Shown one piece after another: positions 37,301 through 43,300 of a stretch of DNA of 64,000 nt. Made by a program: the position numbers. How positions within the stretch are numbered: the first letter of the stretch is position 1; each line of letters opens with the position of its first letter. The stretch is from Azospirillaceae bacterium (GTDB lineage: Bacteria > Pseudomonadota > Alphaproteobacteria > DSM-16000 > Inquilinaceae): NCBI GenBank assembly GCA_040220455.1, contig JAVJUS010000126.1:13277-77276 (forward strand). Reading direction: 5' to 3'.

Positions 37301-40300
37301 GGTTCCGGCCGGCAGGTGGGAATGCACGGCGCAGGCCATGGCGCCGTCCAGCACCGTCGCCGCGAAGCCGCCGTGGATCGTCCCGATCGGGTTGAGATGG
37401 CGGGCCTCCGGCCGGGCCTCGAAGACCACCCGCCCCTCCTCCACCGCGACCAGGCGCATGGGCATCGTCTCGGTGATCGGCGGCAGGGGATAGGTCCCGG
37501 CCATGGCGCCGCGCAGGAATTCGAGCCCCGAGAGCGCCGCCAGGTCCTCGGCCGGCAGCACGCCAACCCCGGCCCCGGCCCTGTTGTCGCCCTCCGCGTC
37601 GTTGCCGGTCACGGCCTCAGAACCCGATCTCGAAGCCGGCGGTGACGCGGCTGGCGTCGCGGAACTCCCCGAACAGCCCGTCGCGGCCGCCATAGAACAG
37701 GTCGGCCCCGGCGCTCAGCCGGACATTGCTGCGCAGGGAATAATCGAGATCGAGCTGAACGACTCCGTCGGCGTCGTTGAGAGAATGGATGAGGAGGCCG
37801 CCCAAAGTCAGCGTATCGTTGAAGAAATTCTGCTCCACCTTGAGCGTGACCTGCGTCTCCAGGCGATCGCGCACGATGGCCTCGTCATACGCGACGAGCG
37901 CGCTCTGGAAGACCTGGCCGCTGATCAGCGTGTCGCTCACGCCGGTGTAATCGAGCCCGACCACGTAACCGAGCTCGGTCCCGGTCGCCACGCCGTCCTC
38001 GGCCGCCGGCTCGGTCGCCTGGAAATGGCGGTTCGTCGAGACCGCGATCTCGCTGCGCAGGGTCACGTCACCGAAGGCGTTGGAGGCGCTGCCGCCGACC
38101 AGGTGGGAGCGCTCGTAGCGCGGCTCGATGCGCACGCCGCCGGGCGTCAGGCGCCGGGTATAGACCGCTTGGTCGTAGTGATGGAACAGGTAGTTGGCGC
38201 TAAGATCCCATCCGTCGACGAAGGCCGTGACCCGCGCGCCGACATCGCCGTCGAGCAGCAGGTCGTCCGGCCGGTCGGGCTCGGCGATGGTGAACGGCAC
38301 ACCCGGGCGGGGCTGCGGCGAAACCAGCGGCGAGGTGAAGGCGAACGGCGCGCCCGGTGCCGGCACGTCGTCATAGGTCCGGTCCGGGATCCACAGGACC
38401 TGGAGCAGCGCGTCGCCGACCGGGATCTCCGCGTTGGCGGTCCACAGCGGGATCCGCCGGTCCTCGAACTCCGGCAGCACGAACTCCCGGAAGTCGAAGG
38501 GATTGACCTGGTCAAGCACGCGCAGCCCGTCGGCCTGGCCCCAGACCACCTGCTGCTTGCCCAGCCGCAGGAACGTGTCGCCGACGAAGCCGTCGACATA
38601 GAGCTCGCGAAGCTCGGCGTCGAGATAGTCGCCCACCTGCAACCGCCGGCTCCACGGCGCGCGGAATTCCTGGGACGGCCGGCCGGGGGCGAGCCGGTCG
38701 ACCCCCTCGAAGCGCAGCCGGCCGATGCCGGTCAGCCGCCAGCCGTCCGGCAGGTCGGCCGAGACCTCGGGGCTGACCGAGGTCTCGAACTTCTGCGCCT
38801 CGCCGTCGGTCTCGACCGCGATCTCGTTGGTCCACAGCCCCCGGATGTCGAGGTTCAGCGCCTCCAGCGGGCCGGGGCCCGCTCCCTCCCCCTCGGCGCC
38901 CTGCGCGGCGGCGGGCGTGGGCAAGAAAGCGGTCGCGGCGACGCCCAGGGCGACGGCGAAGGCCAGCGGCAGGGCCGCGGCGGGGCGATCCGAATCCATG
39001 GATCAAAGGCCCCGGCGCAGCATCTGCTGCTCGAACATGCGGTCGGGGACGCTCTCCTCGTAATCGACATTGGCGTTGGTGAAGACGGTCGAGTGGCCGG
39101 TCTTGTGGTTCTCCGCCCGGATCACCATCGACGTCCAGATGCCGTCGATCTCCTCGATCCGTTCGTTGGTGATCGTCTTGAGGGGATTGCCGTTGACGTC
39201 CCAGTAGTCGCTGACGAGCGACATGTCGATCTCCGGATCAATGCGCCAGACCACGCGGCCGTAACCGATCTCCTCCGCGATTGCGTCGCTGACCGGCGTG
39301 CCCTCGACCACGTAGGTCTCGACACCGTTCACGGTCTCGGTACCGGTCGTGGCGAAGGTGTAGTCCGACAGCTCCACCTTGTTCTGCTTCTTGATCTCCT
39401 CGTAGGTGAAGTCGGTGCCGAGGAAGTAGTCGCCCCGGTCCGACGCCGCGATGCGCCGGACCTTGCGCAGCGCCGGCAGGTAGAGCCACTGGTCGTCGTC
39501 GACCGACGGATCGGGGTAGTCGTAGGTCAGGAAGGCCGTCCCGCGCACGTTCGTCGGCTCTTCGTAGAACAGGACCGTGCGCTTCTCCTCCCCGAAGTAT
39601 TTCCGGAACGACCGGATCTCCTGGACCCGGGACGTGCCGCTGCGGTCGGTGAGCTCGAGCGTGATGTCCGCCGTCGCGTGCTCGCCCTCCTCGCGGGCAT
39701 CGACCTCCGCCATCAGGGCGTCGCCAGAGGGCATCTCCTGGGCCCGCGTCGTGTCGCCCGCGCCGAGGGCGAGACCGCCGGCGACGCCGAGAGCCAGCGC
39801 CGCCTTGCCGGCCGTCGCGGCGACTCCGCCGCCGGTCGAGGCCCCGGCGCCGCCGGTCAGGAAGCGCGGACGCAGGACGAGCGCCAGCGCCGGCAGCAGC
39901 GTCAGGCTCGCCAGGAAGGCGGTCGAGACGGCGACCGCGACGAGCGCGCCGAACTTGACCAGCGGCGGCACGTCGCTCGTCACGAGGACGCCGAAGCCCA
40001 ACACCAGGGCGGCGAAGTTGAAGAACAGGGCCCGGCCGGTCGTCGGGTAGAGCCGGGCGAGAGCGTCGCGCATGGAGCCCCCCTCCTCGAGTTGGCGATG
40101 CAGGCGGTCGAGGGCGTGGATCGCGAAGTCCACGCCCAGACCGATGGCGATGGCGGCGAACATGGAGGTACCCACGCCGAGCCAGATCCCGGCGAAGCCC
40201 ATTACCGCGTAGATCAGCAGGATCGAGACGACGACCGGCGCGCCGGCGAGCAGCCCGGCCACCGCGGAGCGGAACAGCAGCCCGGCCATGGCCATCACGG

Positions 40301-43300
40301 CGGCGGCCGAGACGACGACGCTCGCCGCGTGGTCCTCGTCGACGCCGTTGATCCAATGGTAGTCGACATTGACCCGCCCGGTCGGCGTCGCCGTCACGCC
40401 CGGCAGGTCGAAGTTCTCGTCCAGCCACTGCTCGACCGCCGGGACCACCACCGCGTTGTTGGTGTACTCCCCGGTGTCGAGATAGGCGCGCACCAGCGCC
40501 CGGCGCCGCTCGTAGTCGACCTCCTCCTCCAGGTCGGTCGGATCGCCCGAAACCTCGTAGAGCAGGAAGAGCTGGGCGATCAGATTCGGGTCGTCGGGGA
40601 TCGCGTAGGCGGCGTCGCGGTTCTCGTTCACCGCCTTGTTCATCTGCTTGATGTAGTCGACGATCGAGGTCGTGCCGTTGACATGCGGCAGCGTCTCCAG
40701 GAAGGCCTGGAGATCCTCGATCCCGCGCAGCACCGCCGGATCGAACAGGCCTTCCCGGCCCTCGGTCTCGATGACCACGTCCAGGTTGTAGGTGCCGTCC
40801 ATGACCGCGTTGATCCGCTTGTCGGCGCGGTATAGCGGCTCGCTCGGCTCGAAGTTGTTGATCCGGGAATCGTTGACGACGACCTGGGAGGCGCCGGCGA
40901 CGCCGGCCACGACGACGACCGCCCAGAACCCGATGACGAGGCCCGGCCGCGCCAGGACCGCGCCGCCCAGCGCGCCCATGGCGCGGGCCGGCACGCCCTG
41001 GCGTCCCGCCGCGCCGTCGCCGCGGAAGGCCCGGCTCGGCCGCGCCGGCAGCATGGCGAGGATCGCCGGCAGCACGGTCAGCGAATAGACCCAGGCGATC
41101 GCCACGCCGACCGCGCCATACAGGCCGAAATACCGGATCGGCGGCATGTCGTTGGTCGGCCAGAAGGCCAGGAAGCCCGCGATCGTCGTCAGCGAGGTGA
41201 AGGTGATCGGGCGCCACTTCTCCCGCATCACCTCGGCGACGATCGCCTTGCGGTCGCGATCAGGGTCCCGGGCGATGGATTCGTAGTACTCGCTGAAGAC
41301 ATGGACCGAGTCGGCCACCGCGATGCCGATCAGGCAGACGATCAGCCCGTTGGTGATGACGTAGAAGGCCACGCCCGAGGCCGCCATGAGGCCGAGGGTC
41401 AGCGCGACCGTCGCCAGCACGATCAGGTTGGGCACCAGGGCGCCGCGGATCGTCAGGAAGGCGGCGAACAGCACCGCGGTGATGATCAGCCCGGCCAGCG
41501 GGTTCAGCTTCGCCGCGTCCCGGTCGATATAGGTCGACAGGAACCCGGCGATCGCCCCCTCGCCCGCAACGTGCAGCGTGACGCCCGGCGGCGTCTCGGC
41601 CGAGGCGGTGACGTCGCGGATGGCGTCATAGGTGGCTTGCGCCGCGTCCTCGTCGATCAGCTCGGCGACGATCACCGTCGCCCGGCCGTCGCGGGCGACC
41701 AGGTTGCCGTGGTAGAGCGGGAAGGCCTCGGCCGCGGCGCGCACCGACGCCGCGCCGACCTCGTCCTGCGGCACGGGGTCGAAGAAGTCCGGGACTTCCA
41801 TCCCGATATCGGTCCCGACCACGGTCGATTCCGTCGCCAGGCTGACCACCCGGTCCGGATCGACGTTGTCGAGGCCCAGCAGGCGGTCCGTCAGCCGGTC
41901 GACGAGCTGCAGCGTCTCCGGCGTATAGACGCCGCCCGCGCCGCCGCCCTCCGGCGCCGCCTCGTCGGCGACCACGGCGACGACGATCGGGTCGCGCAGT
42001 CCGAAGATCTCCTCCACCCGGTCGCGGTAGACCAGAGCCGGGTTCTCCGGATCGATGAAGGCGCCGGCCGAGGTGTCCTTCTCCAACCGCGGGATCTGGG
42101 AGATCCCGGCGGCGATCACCATCAGGCCCAGGATCAGCACGGGCCAGCGCCAGGCCACGATGCGGCCGAAGAAGCCGCCGGGCGTCCTGGCGGACGGATC
42201 GGCCTGAGACGACGAGGGGGAGGTGGCCACGGCGGGGGTTCCTTCGTCTTCGGCGGCGCGGCGCCCGCCCGGTACGGGCCGGTGCCTCGGCGTTCGGCGC
42301 GCTGCCTTTATATCGTGTATCTACACTATAAGGGTCCGAAAAAAGATCAAGCGCCGTCGAGCAAGGCCTCGATCCCGCGGCCGGCGGCCTGCCACTCGGC
42401 CTCGCCCAGATTGGCGCGCAGGCTCTCCTGGGCCTTGCGCCAGTAGGGCAGCGCGCCGTCGAGCGCGCGGCGTCCGTCGGCCGTCAGCGCCAGCTTGCGC
42501 GCCCGCCGCGCCCCCTCCGGCCCGACCGCGATGAGGCCGCGCCGCTCCAGGAGTTGAATGTTGCGGGTCAGCGTCGTGCGCTCCATGGCGAGGAAGTCGG
42601 CGAGCCGCGTGATCGACGACGCCGATCCCTGGGCCACGGCGACCAGCAGCGTGAACTGGGTCGCCTTCAGGCCGGTCGGGCGCAGCGCCTCGTCGTAGCT
42701 GCGTGTGACCTTGCGCGCCGCCATGCGGGCCCGACGACACGCGCATTCCCGCGCGACGGTGTCGAGATCGGGCGGCGAAATGTCGCCGGCGTCGGGGGTG
42801 TCGCGCGCATCGGGAGCCATCTTCGACCCCGTCGCATGCTCCGCCCCCGGCGTCAAGGCCGACGCCCGCCGGACGGGCGGACGCCGGGCCATGACGGCGT
42901 TCACGCGACCCGGCCCTCGGCTCCCGCCTCGACCCCCGGCTCGGCCACGGCCGGCGCGGGTTCGGCGGCGGTCTCGTCGCGCGCTCCGGCCACGAAGGCC
43001 ACCAGGTCGTCGAGCACGCCACGGTCGAACAGGATCTGGCGATGCCCGAGGCCCGAGCTCTCGCGCAGGCGCGTGTTCTTCAGCGCCGCGTGGATCTTGT
43101 CGGCCTCCTCGATCCGGACGAGCAGGTCGTCGTTGTCGTGGACGAGCAGCACCGGAATGTCGAGGTCCTTGCCCAGCTCGGCGATGTTCCAGTGATCCAC
43201 CGGCACGCCGTTGCGCGACCAGAGCTGCTCGCGCATGACCTGGAAGACGGGCTTGGAAATGTGCAGGTAGCCGGCCCATGCCTCCATCACGCGGGGCAGC

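What the first reader, a model, noticed from the sequence alone, without database searches (positions are those of the whole stretch)
39003..42230. MMPL transporter fused to a LolA-like periplasmic domain, with a relic signal-peptide-like extra TM at the junction
The first ~800 aa form a standard MMPL/RND-like 12-TM protein. The last ~250 aa (..[35 protein letters not shown]..) look like the LolA-like outer-membrane lipoprotein-sorting family, which is usually encoded as a separate secreted protein next to such transporters.

The junction (nt ~39760-39880) encodes ..GGGVAATAGKAALALGVAGGLALGAGDTTRAQE.. . This reads like a retained signal peptide with an A-x-A-like cleavage region, now positioned as a 13th TM segment. 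That topology would correctly place the LolA-like domain in the periplasm.

The next genes follow after only 3 and 4 nt, which suggests one export machine. A covalent pump-to-chaperone link for hydrophobic cargo hand-off would be mechanistically informative.
Basis: partly seen in the sequence, partly recalled or inferred. Interest (0 to 1): 0.6.

Follow-up and report, generated by a model that had tools for sequence, protein, structure and literature searches.

The report
RND pump fused to LolA-like carrier
One gene encodes an inner-membrane lipid-type pump that runs on, through an intact export signal with a conserved cutting site, into its periplasmic carrier protein; the fusion is real and found in many marine bacteria, was noted in one 2018 proteomics paper, and is probably cut into two proteins rather than staying linked.

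Summary
ORF 39003-42230 (-) encodes 1075 aa. It comprises a 12-TM MMPL/HAE3-type RND transporter (about residues 1-792), a signal-peptide-like junction (793-830) and a full LolA_like PF17131 domain (E 8.7e-51).

The fusion is not an oddity of this assembly:
- At least 140 full-length fused proteins are on record, and 80 species genomes hold the fused gene.
- A DUF1302-like outer-membrane barrel gene follows in 79 of 80 loci. A MarR gene precedes in 65 of 80.
- Orthologous operons with the same gene order exist in split form in Pyruvatibacter and Alteromonas. There the carrier has its own start and signal peptide.
- Fused and split forms are each stable, with only 4-5 switches on a robust tree.

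The junction is not a relic. The -1 Ala is kept in 107 of 110 fused proteins and -3 is small in about 92%, while the surrounding linker is hypervariable. Most fused genes, this one included, have no internal start codon. The segment is no longer than a normal signal peptide, and AlphaFold gives it no structure.

My best reading (about 0.6) is a precursor cut by signal peptidase I into pump plus free carrier. A permanent tether remains possible (about 0.3).

Thalassolituus TOL_3187/3188, by its published description the same fused pair, is induced on n-C28 alkane. This scan had already noted the split module in about 42 genomes, and analogous RND-partner fusions.

The parts
42347..42820 (-). 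MarR-family regulator gene. The start is uncertain: ATG at 42820 or 42724. The longest ORF, to 43279, overlaps the upstream hydrolase gene and is too long.
   Evidence: Pfam MarR_2/MarR. A MarR-like gene of about 149 aa lies upstream on the same strand in 65 of 80 related loci. Start candidates are listed.
39003..42230 (-). Whole fused ORF, 1075 aa plus stop, GTG start. It is the precursor of the RND pump plus the LolA-like carrier.
   Evidence: There are 110 fused homologues at 51-61% identity over the full length and 80 genomic loci with full-length matches.
39855..42230 (-). MMPL/HAE3-type RND transporter part, residues 1-792. It has 12 TM helices and two periplasmic domains (about 50-222 and 456-617). 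D307/H310 in TM4 and D701/H705 in TM10 are conserved.
   Evidence: Pfam/NCBIfam. AF2 secondary structure. Foldseek hits to MmpL4/5/3, NPC1, Patched and HpnN. Invariant columns are listed.
39804..39854 (-). Cytoplasmic linker, or n-region, residues 793-809 (TGGAGASTGGGVAATAGK). It follows LRPRFL at the end of TM12. The stretch from R787 to G825 contains basic residues only (R787, R789, K809) and no acidic ones, and no start codon.
   Evidence: Sequence. The columns are hypervariable among homologues. pLDDT is below 50.
39756..39803 (-). h-region of the internal signal peptide, or candidate 13th span, residues 810-825 (AALALGVAGGLALGAG). It has 16 uncharged residues and a mean Kyte-Doolittle value of about 1.8.
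   Evidence: Sequence. The uncharged run has a median of 21 residues in fused proteins against 20 in stand-alone signal peptides. AF2 predicts no helix here.
39741..39755 (-). c-region with the predicted signal peptidase I site, residues 826-830 (D-T-T-R-A, cut before Q831). T828 is at -3 and A830 at -1. A weaker alternative site is G-A-G before D826.
   Evidence: Column counts in 110 fused proteins: -1 is A in 107; -3 is A75 V12 T9 L6 S4 G1; -2 is hypervariable. In 71 species genomes, -1 is A in 54 and has the lowest entropy of the linker. The site aligns with the cleavage sites of stand-alone orthologues (VRA/QD, AIA/QD).
39006..39740 (-). Mature LolA-like (PF17131 / TP_0789-like) periplasmic domain, residues 831-1075.
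   Evidence: Pfam E 8.7e-51. PDB sequence hits 9tp6_A 4.9e-32, 4z48_A and 3bk5_A. The AF2 domain matches LolA3 of P. gingivalis with TM 0.90 and rmsd 2.1.
37617..38999 (-). DUF1302-like outer-membrane beta-barrel gene, 460 aa with an N-terminal signal peptide. It starts 3 nt after the fused ORF's stop codon.
   Evidence: Pfam PF06980, partial match, E 6.6e-18. AF2 gives pLDDT 90.9, an N-terminal helix at 9-25 and then all beta. Foldseek hits OmpF/OmpC-type porins. The gene lies immediately downstream on the same strand in 79 of 80 loci.
37109..37612 (-). Hotdog-fold (PaaI-like) thioesterase gene, probable GTG start at 37612. It is an accessory gene, not part of the conserved core.
   Evidence: Pfam 4HBT and TIGR00369. 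It is absent from the 80 fused loci, but a 4HBT gene follows the split module in Pyruvatibacter.
36375..37028 (-). Glutathione S-transferase gene, a recurrent accessory neighbour.
   Evidence: Pfam GST_N/GST_C. GST genes lie near the module in 8-13 of 80 loci and in Pyruvatibacter.

Best explanation
The gene encodes a precursor of two proteins that work together. Residues 1-792 form a proton-driven MMPL/HAE3-type RND transporter of the inner membrane. The chain then continues, with no stop and no new start codon, into the complete pre-protein of a PF17131 LolA-like periplasmic carrier. That pre-protein has a basic n-region, a 16-residue hydrophobic core, a T-R-A/Q cleavage motif and the mature domain.

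The C-terminus of a 12-TM RND is cytoplasmic. The hydrophobic core therefore inserts N-in/C-out, and the Sec machinery moves the carrier domain into the periplasm (inferred from topology rules). Signal peptidase I then most likely cuts after A830. This would leave the signal peptide as a short extra span on the pump and release the carrier in 1:1 amounts (inferred from conservation, not shown).

The carrier takes a hydrophobic cargo from the pump's periplasmic domains and passes it to the DUF1302-like outer-membrane barrel encoded 3 nt downstream (inferred from the conserved operon and from the related AmeABCD-type systems). A MarR regulator upstream controls the set.

The cargo is unknown. 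A lipid or hydrocarbon-like molecule fits several observations: the lipid-transporting relatives of the pump, the alkane induction of the Thalassolituus pair, and the fatty-acyl genes beside the module in this genome.
For: Shown:
- Domain content and continuity of the frame.
- Fold of both parts and solved LolA-like relatives.
- The fusion is conserved. There are 141 full-length fused proteins and 80 species genomes with it across Gamma- and Alphaproteobacteria, a SAR324 MAG and a Balneolaceae MAG.
- The barrel gene lies downstream in 79/80 loci and MarR upstream in 65/80.
- Split orthologous operons have the same order. The carrier gene starts 26 nt inside the pump gene's 3' end in another frame and carries its own signal peptide.
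- On sequences from contigs of at least 10 kb, only 4-5 fused/split switches are needed. There are deep all-fused clades of 20, 12 and 9 rows.

Supporting cleavage:
- In 110 fused proteins -1 is Ala in 107 and -3 is A/V/T/S/G in 101. Position -2 and the rest of the linker are hypervariable. The same pattern appears in 71 species genomes.
- Only 16 of 72 fused genes have an in-frame start with a Shine-Dalgarno-like motif in the junction, and the window has none. The site therefore cannot be kept for a separately translated carrier.
- The hydrophobic run is no longer than in stand-alone signal peptides (median 21 against 20).
- AF2 gives residues 795-831 pLDDT below 50 and no helix, while both flanking domains are confident.
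- Only about 5 residues separate the site from the folded domain. An uncut carrier would be held at the inner membrane, yet DUF1329, a related LolA-like protein, is predicted to dock on the DUF1302 barrel (PMC13499233).

Functional context:
- AmeABCD (PMC6394551).
- Co-fitness of DUF1302/DUF1329/BNR/RND genes (10.1101/072470).
- TOL_3187/3188 induced on n-C28 (PMC6304351).
Against: - Cleavage has not been observed for any member. No proteomic or biochemical data were available here.
- In the window's own protein the -3 residue is Thr, not Ala. The hydrophobic core is rich in Gly and Ala, so the site is weaker than the family consensus.
- The hydrophobic core of fused proteins is slightly more hydrophobic than that of stand-alone ones (3.08 against 2.72). 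This could reflect adaptation to a permanent anchor.
- Part of the A-x-A conservation could be inherited from split ancestors.
- The AF2 pTM of 0.84 may mean that the carrier domain docks on the pump. That fits a tether as well as a cut product.
- The direction of transport and the cargo are inferred only.
Confidence: 0.6

Rival explanations
1. Permanent tether. The hydrophobic segment stays as an uncleaved 13th TM helix. The LolA-like domain works while covalently anchored beside the pump's periplasmic domains, as a built-in cargo acceptor or lid.
For: - The frame is continuous and no internal start exists.
- The fusion is stable over long times, so a covalent link could be the selected feature.
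- The hydrophobic core is slightly stronger in fused forms.
- The high whole-chain pTM of 0.84 is compatible with a docked domain.
Against: - An anchor has no need for Ala at -1 in 107/110 and a small residue at -3 in about 92%, with a free -2, inside a hypervariable linker.
- The segment has signal-peptide length, not anchor length.
- AF2 shows no helix and no packing for 795-831.
- A tether of about 5 residues could not reach an outer-membrane barrel.
- Split orthologues release the same domain as a soluble protein.
Confidence: 0.3
2. Assembly or sequencing artefact. In the real genome the pump and carrier genes are separate and overlapping, as in Pyruvatibacter. A one-base error in the overlap fused them in this assembly.
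For: - Split forms differ from fused ones only by the frame relation in a short overlap, so a single indel could create a false fusion.
- The genome is a draft of 148 contigs.
- Reads could not be checked.
Against: - The closest relatives on the robust tree (P0004, P0005; 71% in the carrier domain, 60% overall) are fused.
- More than 140 independent fused sequences exist, including complete genomes.
- The window's junction has no fossil start codon. A freshly broken split gene would still carry one.
- GC3 remains 0.90 or higher in frame through the junction.
Confidence: 0.03
3. Same architecture, opposite role. The module serves uptake or surface handling of very hydrophobic nutrients such as long-chain alkanes or lipids. 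The barrel would be the entry pore and the carrier would ferry cargo inward. It would not export a cell-made lipid.
For: - TOL_3187 is up 42-fold and TOL_3188 is expressed only on n-C28 in Thalassolituus oleivorans (PMC6304351).
- Fused genes are concentrated in marine hydrocarbon and lipid degraders such as Marinobacter, Thalassolituus, Oleiphilus, Ketobacter and Pseudomaricurvus hydrocarbonicus.
- DUF1302/DUF1329 mutants show defects on fatty esters in P. putida (10.1101/2020.07.04.188060).
Against: - Characterised relatives of the pump (MmpL3/4/5, HpnN, and AmeD for tolerance) move cargo outward (PMC6394551).
- In the window, and in one Paraneptunicella MAG, the module sits beside a FAAL-carrier protein-desaturase set. 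This suggests a cell-made lipid.
- Induction on an alkane is equally expected for export of a surfactant or for solvent tolerance.
Confidence: 0.2

Closest known systems
TOL_3187 / TOL_3188 of Thalassolituus oleivorans MIL-1 (Gregson et al. 2018, PMC6304351)
   Same: [quoted passage not shown] This is the same two-gene layout. Other Thalassolituus genomes hold full-length fused orthologues with the barrel gene downstream (L057, L069).
   Different: I did not compare the TOL_3187 sequence itself. The paper reports only domain annotation and induction on n-C28. It proposes that the pump exports the porin and does not discuss the junction, a signal peptide or cleavage.
Split MarR / MMPL / LolA_like / DUF1302 operons (Pyruvatibacter mobilis L086, Alteromonas australica L088)
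   Same: Gene order is the same and the carrier domains are 58-59% identical. The barrel gene is the same. Pyruvatibacter also has GST and 4HBT genes downstream, as in the window.
   Different: The pump gene ends with a stop. The carrier gene starts 26 nt upstream of that stop in another frame, with its own Shine-Dalgarno motif, ATG and signal peptide. Here the two frames are joined and the start is lost.
AmeABCD of Castellaniella defragrans and the DUF1302/DUF1329/BNR/RND cassettes of Shewanella, Kangiella and Pseudomonas (PMC6394551; 10.1101/072470)
   Same: These combine an HAE3-type RND pump, a LolA-superfamily periplasmic protein and a DUF1302 barrel, with no membrane-fusion adaptor or TolC. 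They give solvent-tolerance and fatty-ester phenotypes. The window's genome carries such a cassette as well, on another contig.
   Different: Those are four separate genes. Their LolA-like protein is the larger DUF1329 (about 450 aa) and their barrel is about 600-680 aa, and they include a BNR/COG4447 protein. Here the carrier is PF17131 (245 aa), the barrel is 460 aa, no BNR partner is conserved, and pump and carrier are one ORF.
LolA3 of Porphyromonas gingivalis (PGN0947, PDB 9TP6; PMC13103446) and the PG1175-81 operon (PMC10434189)
   Same: It is the closest solved structure to the C-terminal domain (E 4.9e-32, TM 0.90). It is a secreted LolA paralogue that does not pair with LolB. An iron-regulated P. 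gingivalis operon lists an 'outer membrane lipoprotein-sorting protein' next to an MMPL transporter.
   Different: It is a stand-alone protein in a different phylum, with a TetR regulator and ABC genes nearby. Identity is only 28%. I did not verify that PGN0947 is the gene of that operon.
HpnN and MmpL3/4/5 lipid transporters
   Same: They share the fold of the 12-TM pump with two periplasmic domains. They export lipids from the inner membrane.
   Different: Identity is 14-18%. They have no LolA-like or barrel partner. The MmpL proteins work in a different envelope.
FbcH cytochrome b-c1 polyprotein of Bradyrhizobium japonicum (recalled from memory, not retrieved here)
   Same: A polytopic inner-membrane protein is fused to a periplasmic partner through an internal signal peptide that is cut after membrane insertion. 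This is a precedent for the proposed processing.
   Different: The proteins are unrelated. Cleavage is shown there and only inferred here.

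Membership tests
RND superfamily, MMPL (PF03176) / HAE3-type | Score above the Pfam MMPL gathering threshold | tested here: met
   131.5 bits against a cutoff of 20.5, in two stretches.
RND superfamily, MMPL (PF03176) / HAE3-type | 12 TM helices in two repeats of six, with large periplasmic loops after TM1 and TM7 | tested here: met
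   AF2 helices 17-44, 224-393 (five), 413-449 and 619-786 (five). Mixed alpha/beta domains lie at about 50-222 and 456-617. Foldseek hits MmpL, NPC1 and HpnN.
RND superfamily, MMPL (PF03176) / HAE3-type | Conserved charged residues in TM4 and TM10 (proton relay) | tested here: inconclusive
   D307/H310 and D701/H705 are invariant or nearly so in 110 homologues. Their role as a relay is inferred from position only.
RND superfamily, MMPL (PF03176) / HAE3-type | NCBIfam HAE3 subfamily model TIGR00921 above its curated cutoff | tested here: not met
   It is the best NCBIfam hit, but scores 232.3 bits against a cutoff of 351.9. I therefore call the protein HAE3-like, not a certified member.
LolA_like / TP_0789-like (PF17131) | Full-length match above the gathering threshold | tested here: met
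   172.6 bits against a cutoff of 30, profile positions 2-184 of 184, E 8.7e-51.
LolA_like / TP_0789-like (PF17131) | Open beta-barrel LolA fold | tested here: met
   AF2 domain 836-1073 with pLDDT of about 80-96. TM 0.90 and rmsd 2.1 to LolA3, 9tp6_A. Sequence hits to 9tp6, 4z48 and 3bk5.
LolA_like / TP_0789-like (PF17131) | Sec signal peptide giving a periplasmic location | tested here: met
   An n/h/c-region pattern with an A-x-A-type site lies directly before the domain, here internal rather than N-terminal. Stand-alone relatives have classic N-terminal signal peptides. Export itself cannot be tested in silico.
LolA proper (lipoprotein chaperone of the Lol pathway) | Pairing with LolCDE/LolB and carriage of lipoproteins | not testable with these tools
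   The nearest solved relative, LolA3, does not bind LolB (PMC13103446). The constant partners here are an RND pump and a barrel, which points away from the Lol pathway.
AmeABCD-type DUF1302/DUF1329/BNR/RND cassette | DUF1302 outer-membrane barrel encoded with the pump | tested here: met
   PF06980 scores 65.5 bits against a cutoff of 23.2, but covers only profile positions 143-373. The AF2 model is all-beta with porin-like Foldseek hits. The gene is downstream in 79/80 loci.
AmeABCD-type DUF1302/DUF1329/BNR/RND cassette | DUF1329 periplasmic protein of about 450 aa | tested here: not met
   There is only a local PF07044 match (32.8 bits, residues 880-962). The domain is the shorter PF17131 type. 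A true DUF1329 gene lies elsewhere in the genome.
AmeABCD-type DUF1302/DUF1329/BNR/RND cassette | BNR / COG4447 beta-propeller partner | tested here: not met
   No such gene was found among the window's neighbours tested. It is also absent from the neighbour families shared by the 80 loci, which hold only MarR, hydrolase and GST.
Membrane polyprotein processed at an internal signal peptide | In-frame fusion with no internal start, plus an n/h/c region and a conserved (-3,-1) site | tested here: met
Membrane polyprotein processed at an internal signal peptide | Two mature products demonstrated | not testable with these tools
   This needs a western blot, N-terminal sequencing or proteomics.

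The most novel reading that the evidence does not exclude
The fused gene is a true bacterial membrane polyprotein. Signal peptidase I would cut a 12-TM RND pump from its periplasmic carrier at a conserved internal A-x-A site. The spent signal peptide would stay as a 13th span on the pump, and the two partners would be made in fixed 1:1 amounts. Earlier unverified notes of this scan describe RND pumps fused to outer-membrane channels or barrels. Taken together, this would point to a general and undescribed way in which RND systems co-produce their exported partners.
Probability: 0.5. Interest if true: 0.6.

Novelty: new member of a known kind. Interest (0 to 1): 0.4.

Why it matters
RND / LolA-like / DUF1302 modules are widespread, give fitness phenotypes and are strongly regulated, yet they have no known cargo or mechanism.

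- The fused form is natural genetic evidence that the LolA-like protein is the pump's direct partner, because the two are made as one chain.
- It offers a simple test of how the carrier is delivered: tag both ends and look for one band or two.
- If the junction is cut, it adds a clean bacterial case of signal-peptidase processing inside a polytopic membrane protein.
- In marine hydrocarbon degraders the module is a candidate for handling very hydrophobic substrates.

In itself, this gene is one more member of a fused subfamily that is already in databases and has been seen once in a proteomics paper.

Tried and rejected
1. Internal translation start for the carrier. The window's junction has no in-frame ATG/GTG/TTG. 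The ATG at M833 lies after the hydrophobic core and would give a cytoplasmic protein, so this was rejected.

2. Frequent flipping between fused and split forms. A first tree with all stand-alone sequences needed 30 changes. Most 'stand-alone' rows came from contigs of 1-4 kb and may be cut fusions. With contigs of at least 10 kb only 4-5 changes remain, so the high count was rejected as an artefact.

3. Plus-strand ORF 37503-40835 (1110 aa) overlapping the gene. It has no Pfam match and is a spurious high-GC frame.

4. Lipoprotein signal. There is no Cys or lipobox at the junction.

5. The fatty-acyl cluster (FAAL, carrier protein, three desaturases, hydrolase) as part of the conserved machine. 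It is found next to the module in only 1 of 80 other loci, so it is a local association, not core.

6. Presence in kin. None of 24 same-family genomes has an orthologue, so the module is accessory here.

7. My heuristic site picker chose G-A-G/D in the window. The alignment-based site T-R-A/Q is preferred because it lines up with the family's A-x-A column.

8. Literature searches found no paper on the fusion's junction. The terms tried included 'LolA-like RND fused', HAE3 plus LolA, TP0789, and internal signal peptide plus polyprotein.

Full report
**What is there.** The minus-strand ORF 39003-42230 is open for 1075 codons.
- Pfam finds MMPL (131.5 bits, two stretches to about residue 786), the sterol-sensing/Patched region (256-393) and a full-length LolA_like PF17131 match at 882-1073 (E 8.7e-51).
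- The best NCBIfam model is HAE3 TIGR00921 over residues 100-782. Its 232 bits are below the curated cutoff of 351.9.
- An AlphaFold2 model built on 110 homologues is confident (pLDDT 88.5, pTM 0.84). It shows 12 TM helices, two periplasmic domains and a beta-rich C-terminal domain that starts at helix 836-844.
- Foldseek matches the first part to the lipid transporters MmpL4/5/3, NPC1, Patched and HpnN. It matches the last part to LolA3 of Porphyromonas gingivalis (9tp6_A, TM 0.90, rmsd 2.1).
- By sequence, the C-terminal 275 residues hit 9tp6, 4z48 and 3bk5.

**The junction.** After TM12 (..LLPALALVLRPRFL) come four parts:
- 17 residues without acidic charge that end in K809;
- a 16-residue uncharged core, AALALGVAGGLALGAG (810-825);
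- the stretch D-T-T-R-A (826-830);
- then QEMPSGDALMAEVDAREEG, the start of the conserved domain.

There is no stop and no in-frame ATG, GTG or TTG between TM12 and the core. GC3 stays at 0.90-1.0 in the ORF's frame across the junction.

**The fusion is real and common.**
- A search limited to proteins of similar length found 806 hits to the C-terminal region. The best 120 are almost all 1042-1119 aa and carry both MMPL and LolA_like (three shorter rows look like fragments).
- An unrestricted search of 50%-identity representatives gave 4546 hits. Of the best 150, 24 are full-length fusions and 81 are stand-alone proteins of 240-310 aa with classic N-terminal signal peptides. The rest are mostly fragments.
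- In one-genome-per-species data, 519 relatives were confirmed, and the 80 kept are all full-length fusions. They include Marinobacter, Thalassolituus, Marinomonas, Oleiphilus, Pseudohongiella, Cellvibrionales, Kordiimonas, Pelagibius, Rhodovibrionaceae, Denitrobaculum, a SAR324 MAG and a Balneolaceae MAG.
- NCBI names these proteins 'outer membrane lipoprotein-sorting protein' or 'efflux RND transporter permease subunit'.
- In an even sample of 400 genomes of the phylum, 61 had a close homologue of the carrier. Nearly all of these were in stand-alone frames and one was in a 1042-aa frame. The split form is therefore the commoner one overall.

**Split orthologues show how the two forms relate.** In Pyruvatibacter mobilis and Alteromonas australica the order is (MarR) / MMPL 797-800 aa / LolA-like 264-272 aa / DUF1302 452-454 aa.
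- The carrier gene starts 26 nt before the pump gene's stop, in another frame. An AAGGAG motif inside the pump's tail precedes it.
- Its product begins with a signal peptide that ends ..VRA/QD or ..AIA/QD.
- The window's T-R-A/Q aligns with these sites.

A change of frame in the short overlap is thus enough to convert one form into the other.

**The fused state is stable.** A first tree needed 30 state changes. Many stand-alone rows in it came from very short contigs. With only sequences from contigs of at least 10 kb (61 fused, 35 stand-alone), 4-5 changes suffice, and there are deep all-fused clades of 20, 12 and 9 rows. The fusion is a stable state, not a passing mutation.

**The junction is not a relic.**
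- In the alignment of 110 fused proteins the linker columns are hypervariable. The exceptions are the position aligned with A830 (Ala in 107 of 110) and the one aligned with T828 (A75 V12 T9 L6 S4 G1 D1). The residue between them is free (R, K, S, Q, F, N, E..) and +1 is mostly D or E. This is the (-3,-1) rule of signal peptidase I.
- An independent set of 71 species genomes gives the same picture. Position -1 is Ala in 54, with entropy 1.5 bits against 2.5-3.7 in the neighbouring linker columns.
- The site cannot be kept for a separately translated carrier. Only 16 of 72 fused genes have any in-frame start with a Shine-Dalgarno-like motif in the junction, and the window has none.
- The uncharged run is as short as in stand-alone signal peptides (median 21 against 20), although its core is a little more hydrophobic.
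- AlphaFold2 gives residues 795-831 pLDDT below 50 and no helix, while both flanking domains are confident.
- Only about five residues separate the site from the folded domain, so an uncut carrier would be pinned to the inner membrane.

**Operon and partners.**
- The next gene (37617-38999) starts 3 nt after the stop. [quoted passage not shown]
- A homologue lies immediately downstream on the same strand in 79 of 80 loci. The 80th contig ends at the gene.
- A MarR-type gene lies upstream on the same strand in 65 of 80 loci and in the window.
- An alpha/beta hydrolase (about 16 loci) and a GST (8-13 loci) recur. The thioesterase, desaturases, FAAL and carrier protein of the window do not, except in one Paraneptunicella MAG that has the whole set.
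- The core is therefore MarR, pump-carrier and barrel.
- The window's genome also holds a canonical DUF1302 / DUF1329 / RND cassette on another contig.
- None of 24 genomes of the same family has an orthologue of the fused gene, so the module is accessory here.

**What is known.** No paper that I found treats the junction.
- The four-gene relatives are AmeABCD of Castellaniella defragrans (monoterpene tolerance; PMC6394551) and the co-fit DUF1302/DUF1329/BNR/RND genes (10.1101/072470). The latter also show fatty-ester phenotypes in P. putida (10.1101/2020.07.04.188060).
- DUF1302 is predicted to be an 18-stranded barrel that docks DUF1329 (PMC13499233).
- LolA3 of P. gingivalis, the nearest solved structure, does not bind LolB and has no known role (PMC13103446). 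An 'outer membrane lipoprotein-sorting protein' sits beside an MMPL transporter in an iron-regulated P. gingivalis operon (PMC10434189).
- The fusion itself was seen once. [quoted passage not shown] I did not compare that sequence, but other Thalassolituus genomes carry the fused orthologue with its barrel.
- Earlier notes of this scan describe the split module in about 42 genomes. They also describe RND pumps fused through internal signal peptides to outer-membrane channels or barrels. I treated these as leads only.

**Mechanism and rivals.**
- Best reading (about 0.6): a precursor whose internal signal peptide inserts after TM12, exports the carrier domain, and is cut by signal peptidase I. 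This yields pump and free carrier in equal amounts. The carrier passes a hydrophobic cargo from the pump to the barrel.
- Shown: the architecture, its conservation, the operon, and the conserved site.
- Inferred: export, cleavage, direction and cargo.
- A permanent tether is the main rival (about 0.3).
- An assembly artefact is unlikely (about 0.03). Relatives are fused, no fossil start is present, and the frame signal is continuous.
- An uptake role for long-chain alkanes is a rival reading of function (about 0.2).

**Verdict.** This is one more member of a fused subfamily of a known but uncharacterised envelope-transport module. Its main value is the testable idea that the junction is a working cleavage site.

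Noticed in passing
L085:3046-9958 (own genome, contig C5:81045-87957): The same genome also carries a canonical cassette: DUF1302 (682 aa), DUF1329 (456 aa) and an MMPL-type RND gene. An untested 434-aa ORF lies between them and could be the BNR partner. Split four-gene and fused two-gene systems therefore coexist in one genome.
   Followed up: partly
L065:5078-11735 (Paraneptunicella MAG) and window 42901-49708: The window's hydrolase, three desaturases, carrier protein and FAAL recur as a block right next to the fused module in one distant gammaproteobacterial MAG (41-68% identity). They are absent from the other 79 loci. This may be a mobile lipid-synthesis-plus-export unit.
   Followed up: partly
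P0006, P0007, P0009, P0036, P0057, P0004 (junction): Several fused orthologues keep an in-frame Met preceded by acidic or Gly residues (..ETEM....ESAM....EDDM..). These look like the translated fossil of the Shine-Dalgarno motif and ATG of a once separate carrier gene. The window has lost this.
   Followed up: partly
window 37503-40835 (+): A 1110-aa ORF lies on the opposite strand across the barrel and pump genes. It has no Pfam match and is a typical spurious frame of 70% GC DNA.
   Followed up: yes
L086:8845-10974 (Pyruvatibacter mobilis) and window 36375-37612: A GST gene and a 4HBT hotdog thioesterase gene follow the barrel gene both in the window and in the split operon of Pyruvatibacter. 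The pair may be a recurrent accessory of the module in Alphaproteobacteria.
   Followed up: no
G000 against G001-G024: None of 24 genomes of the same family has an orthologue of the fused gene. One genome of the same class has the split form. This patchy distribution suggests horizontal acquisition.
   Followed up: partly
window 42231-42346: The 116-nt gap between the MarR stop and the pump start is AT-rich for this genome (..CTTATAGTGTAGATACACGATATAAAGG..). Another first-stage note calls it a MarR operator. I did not analyse it.
   Followed up: no
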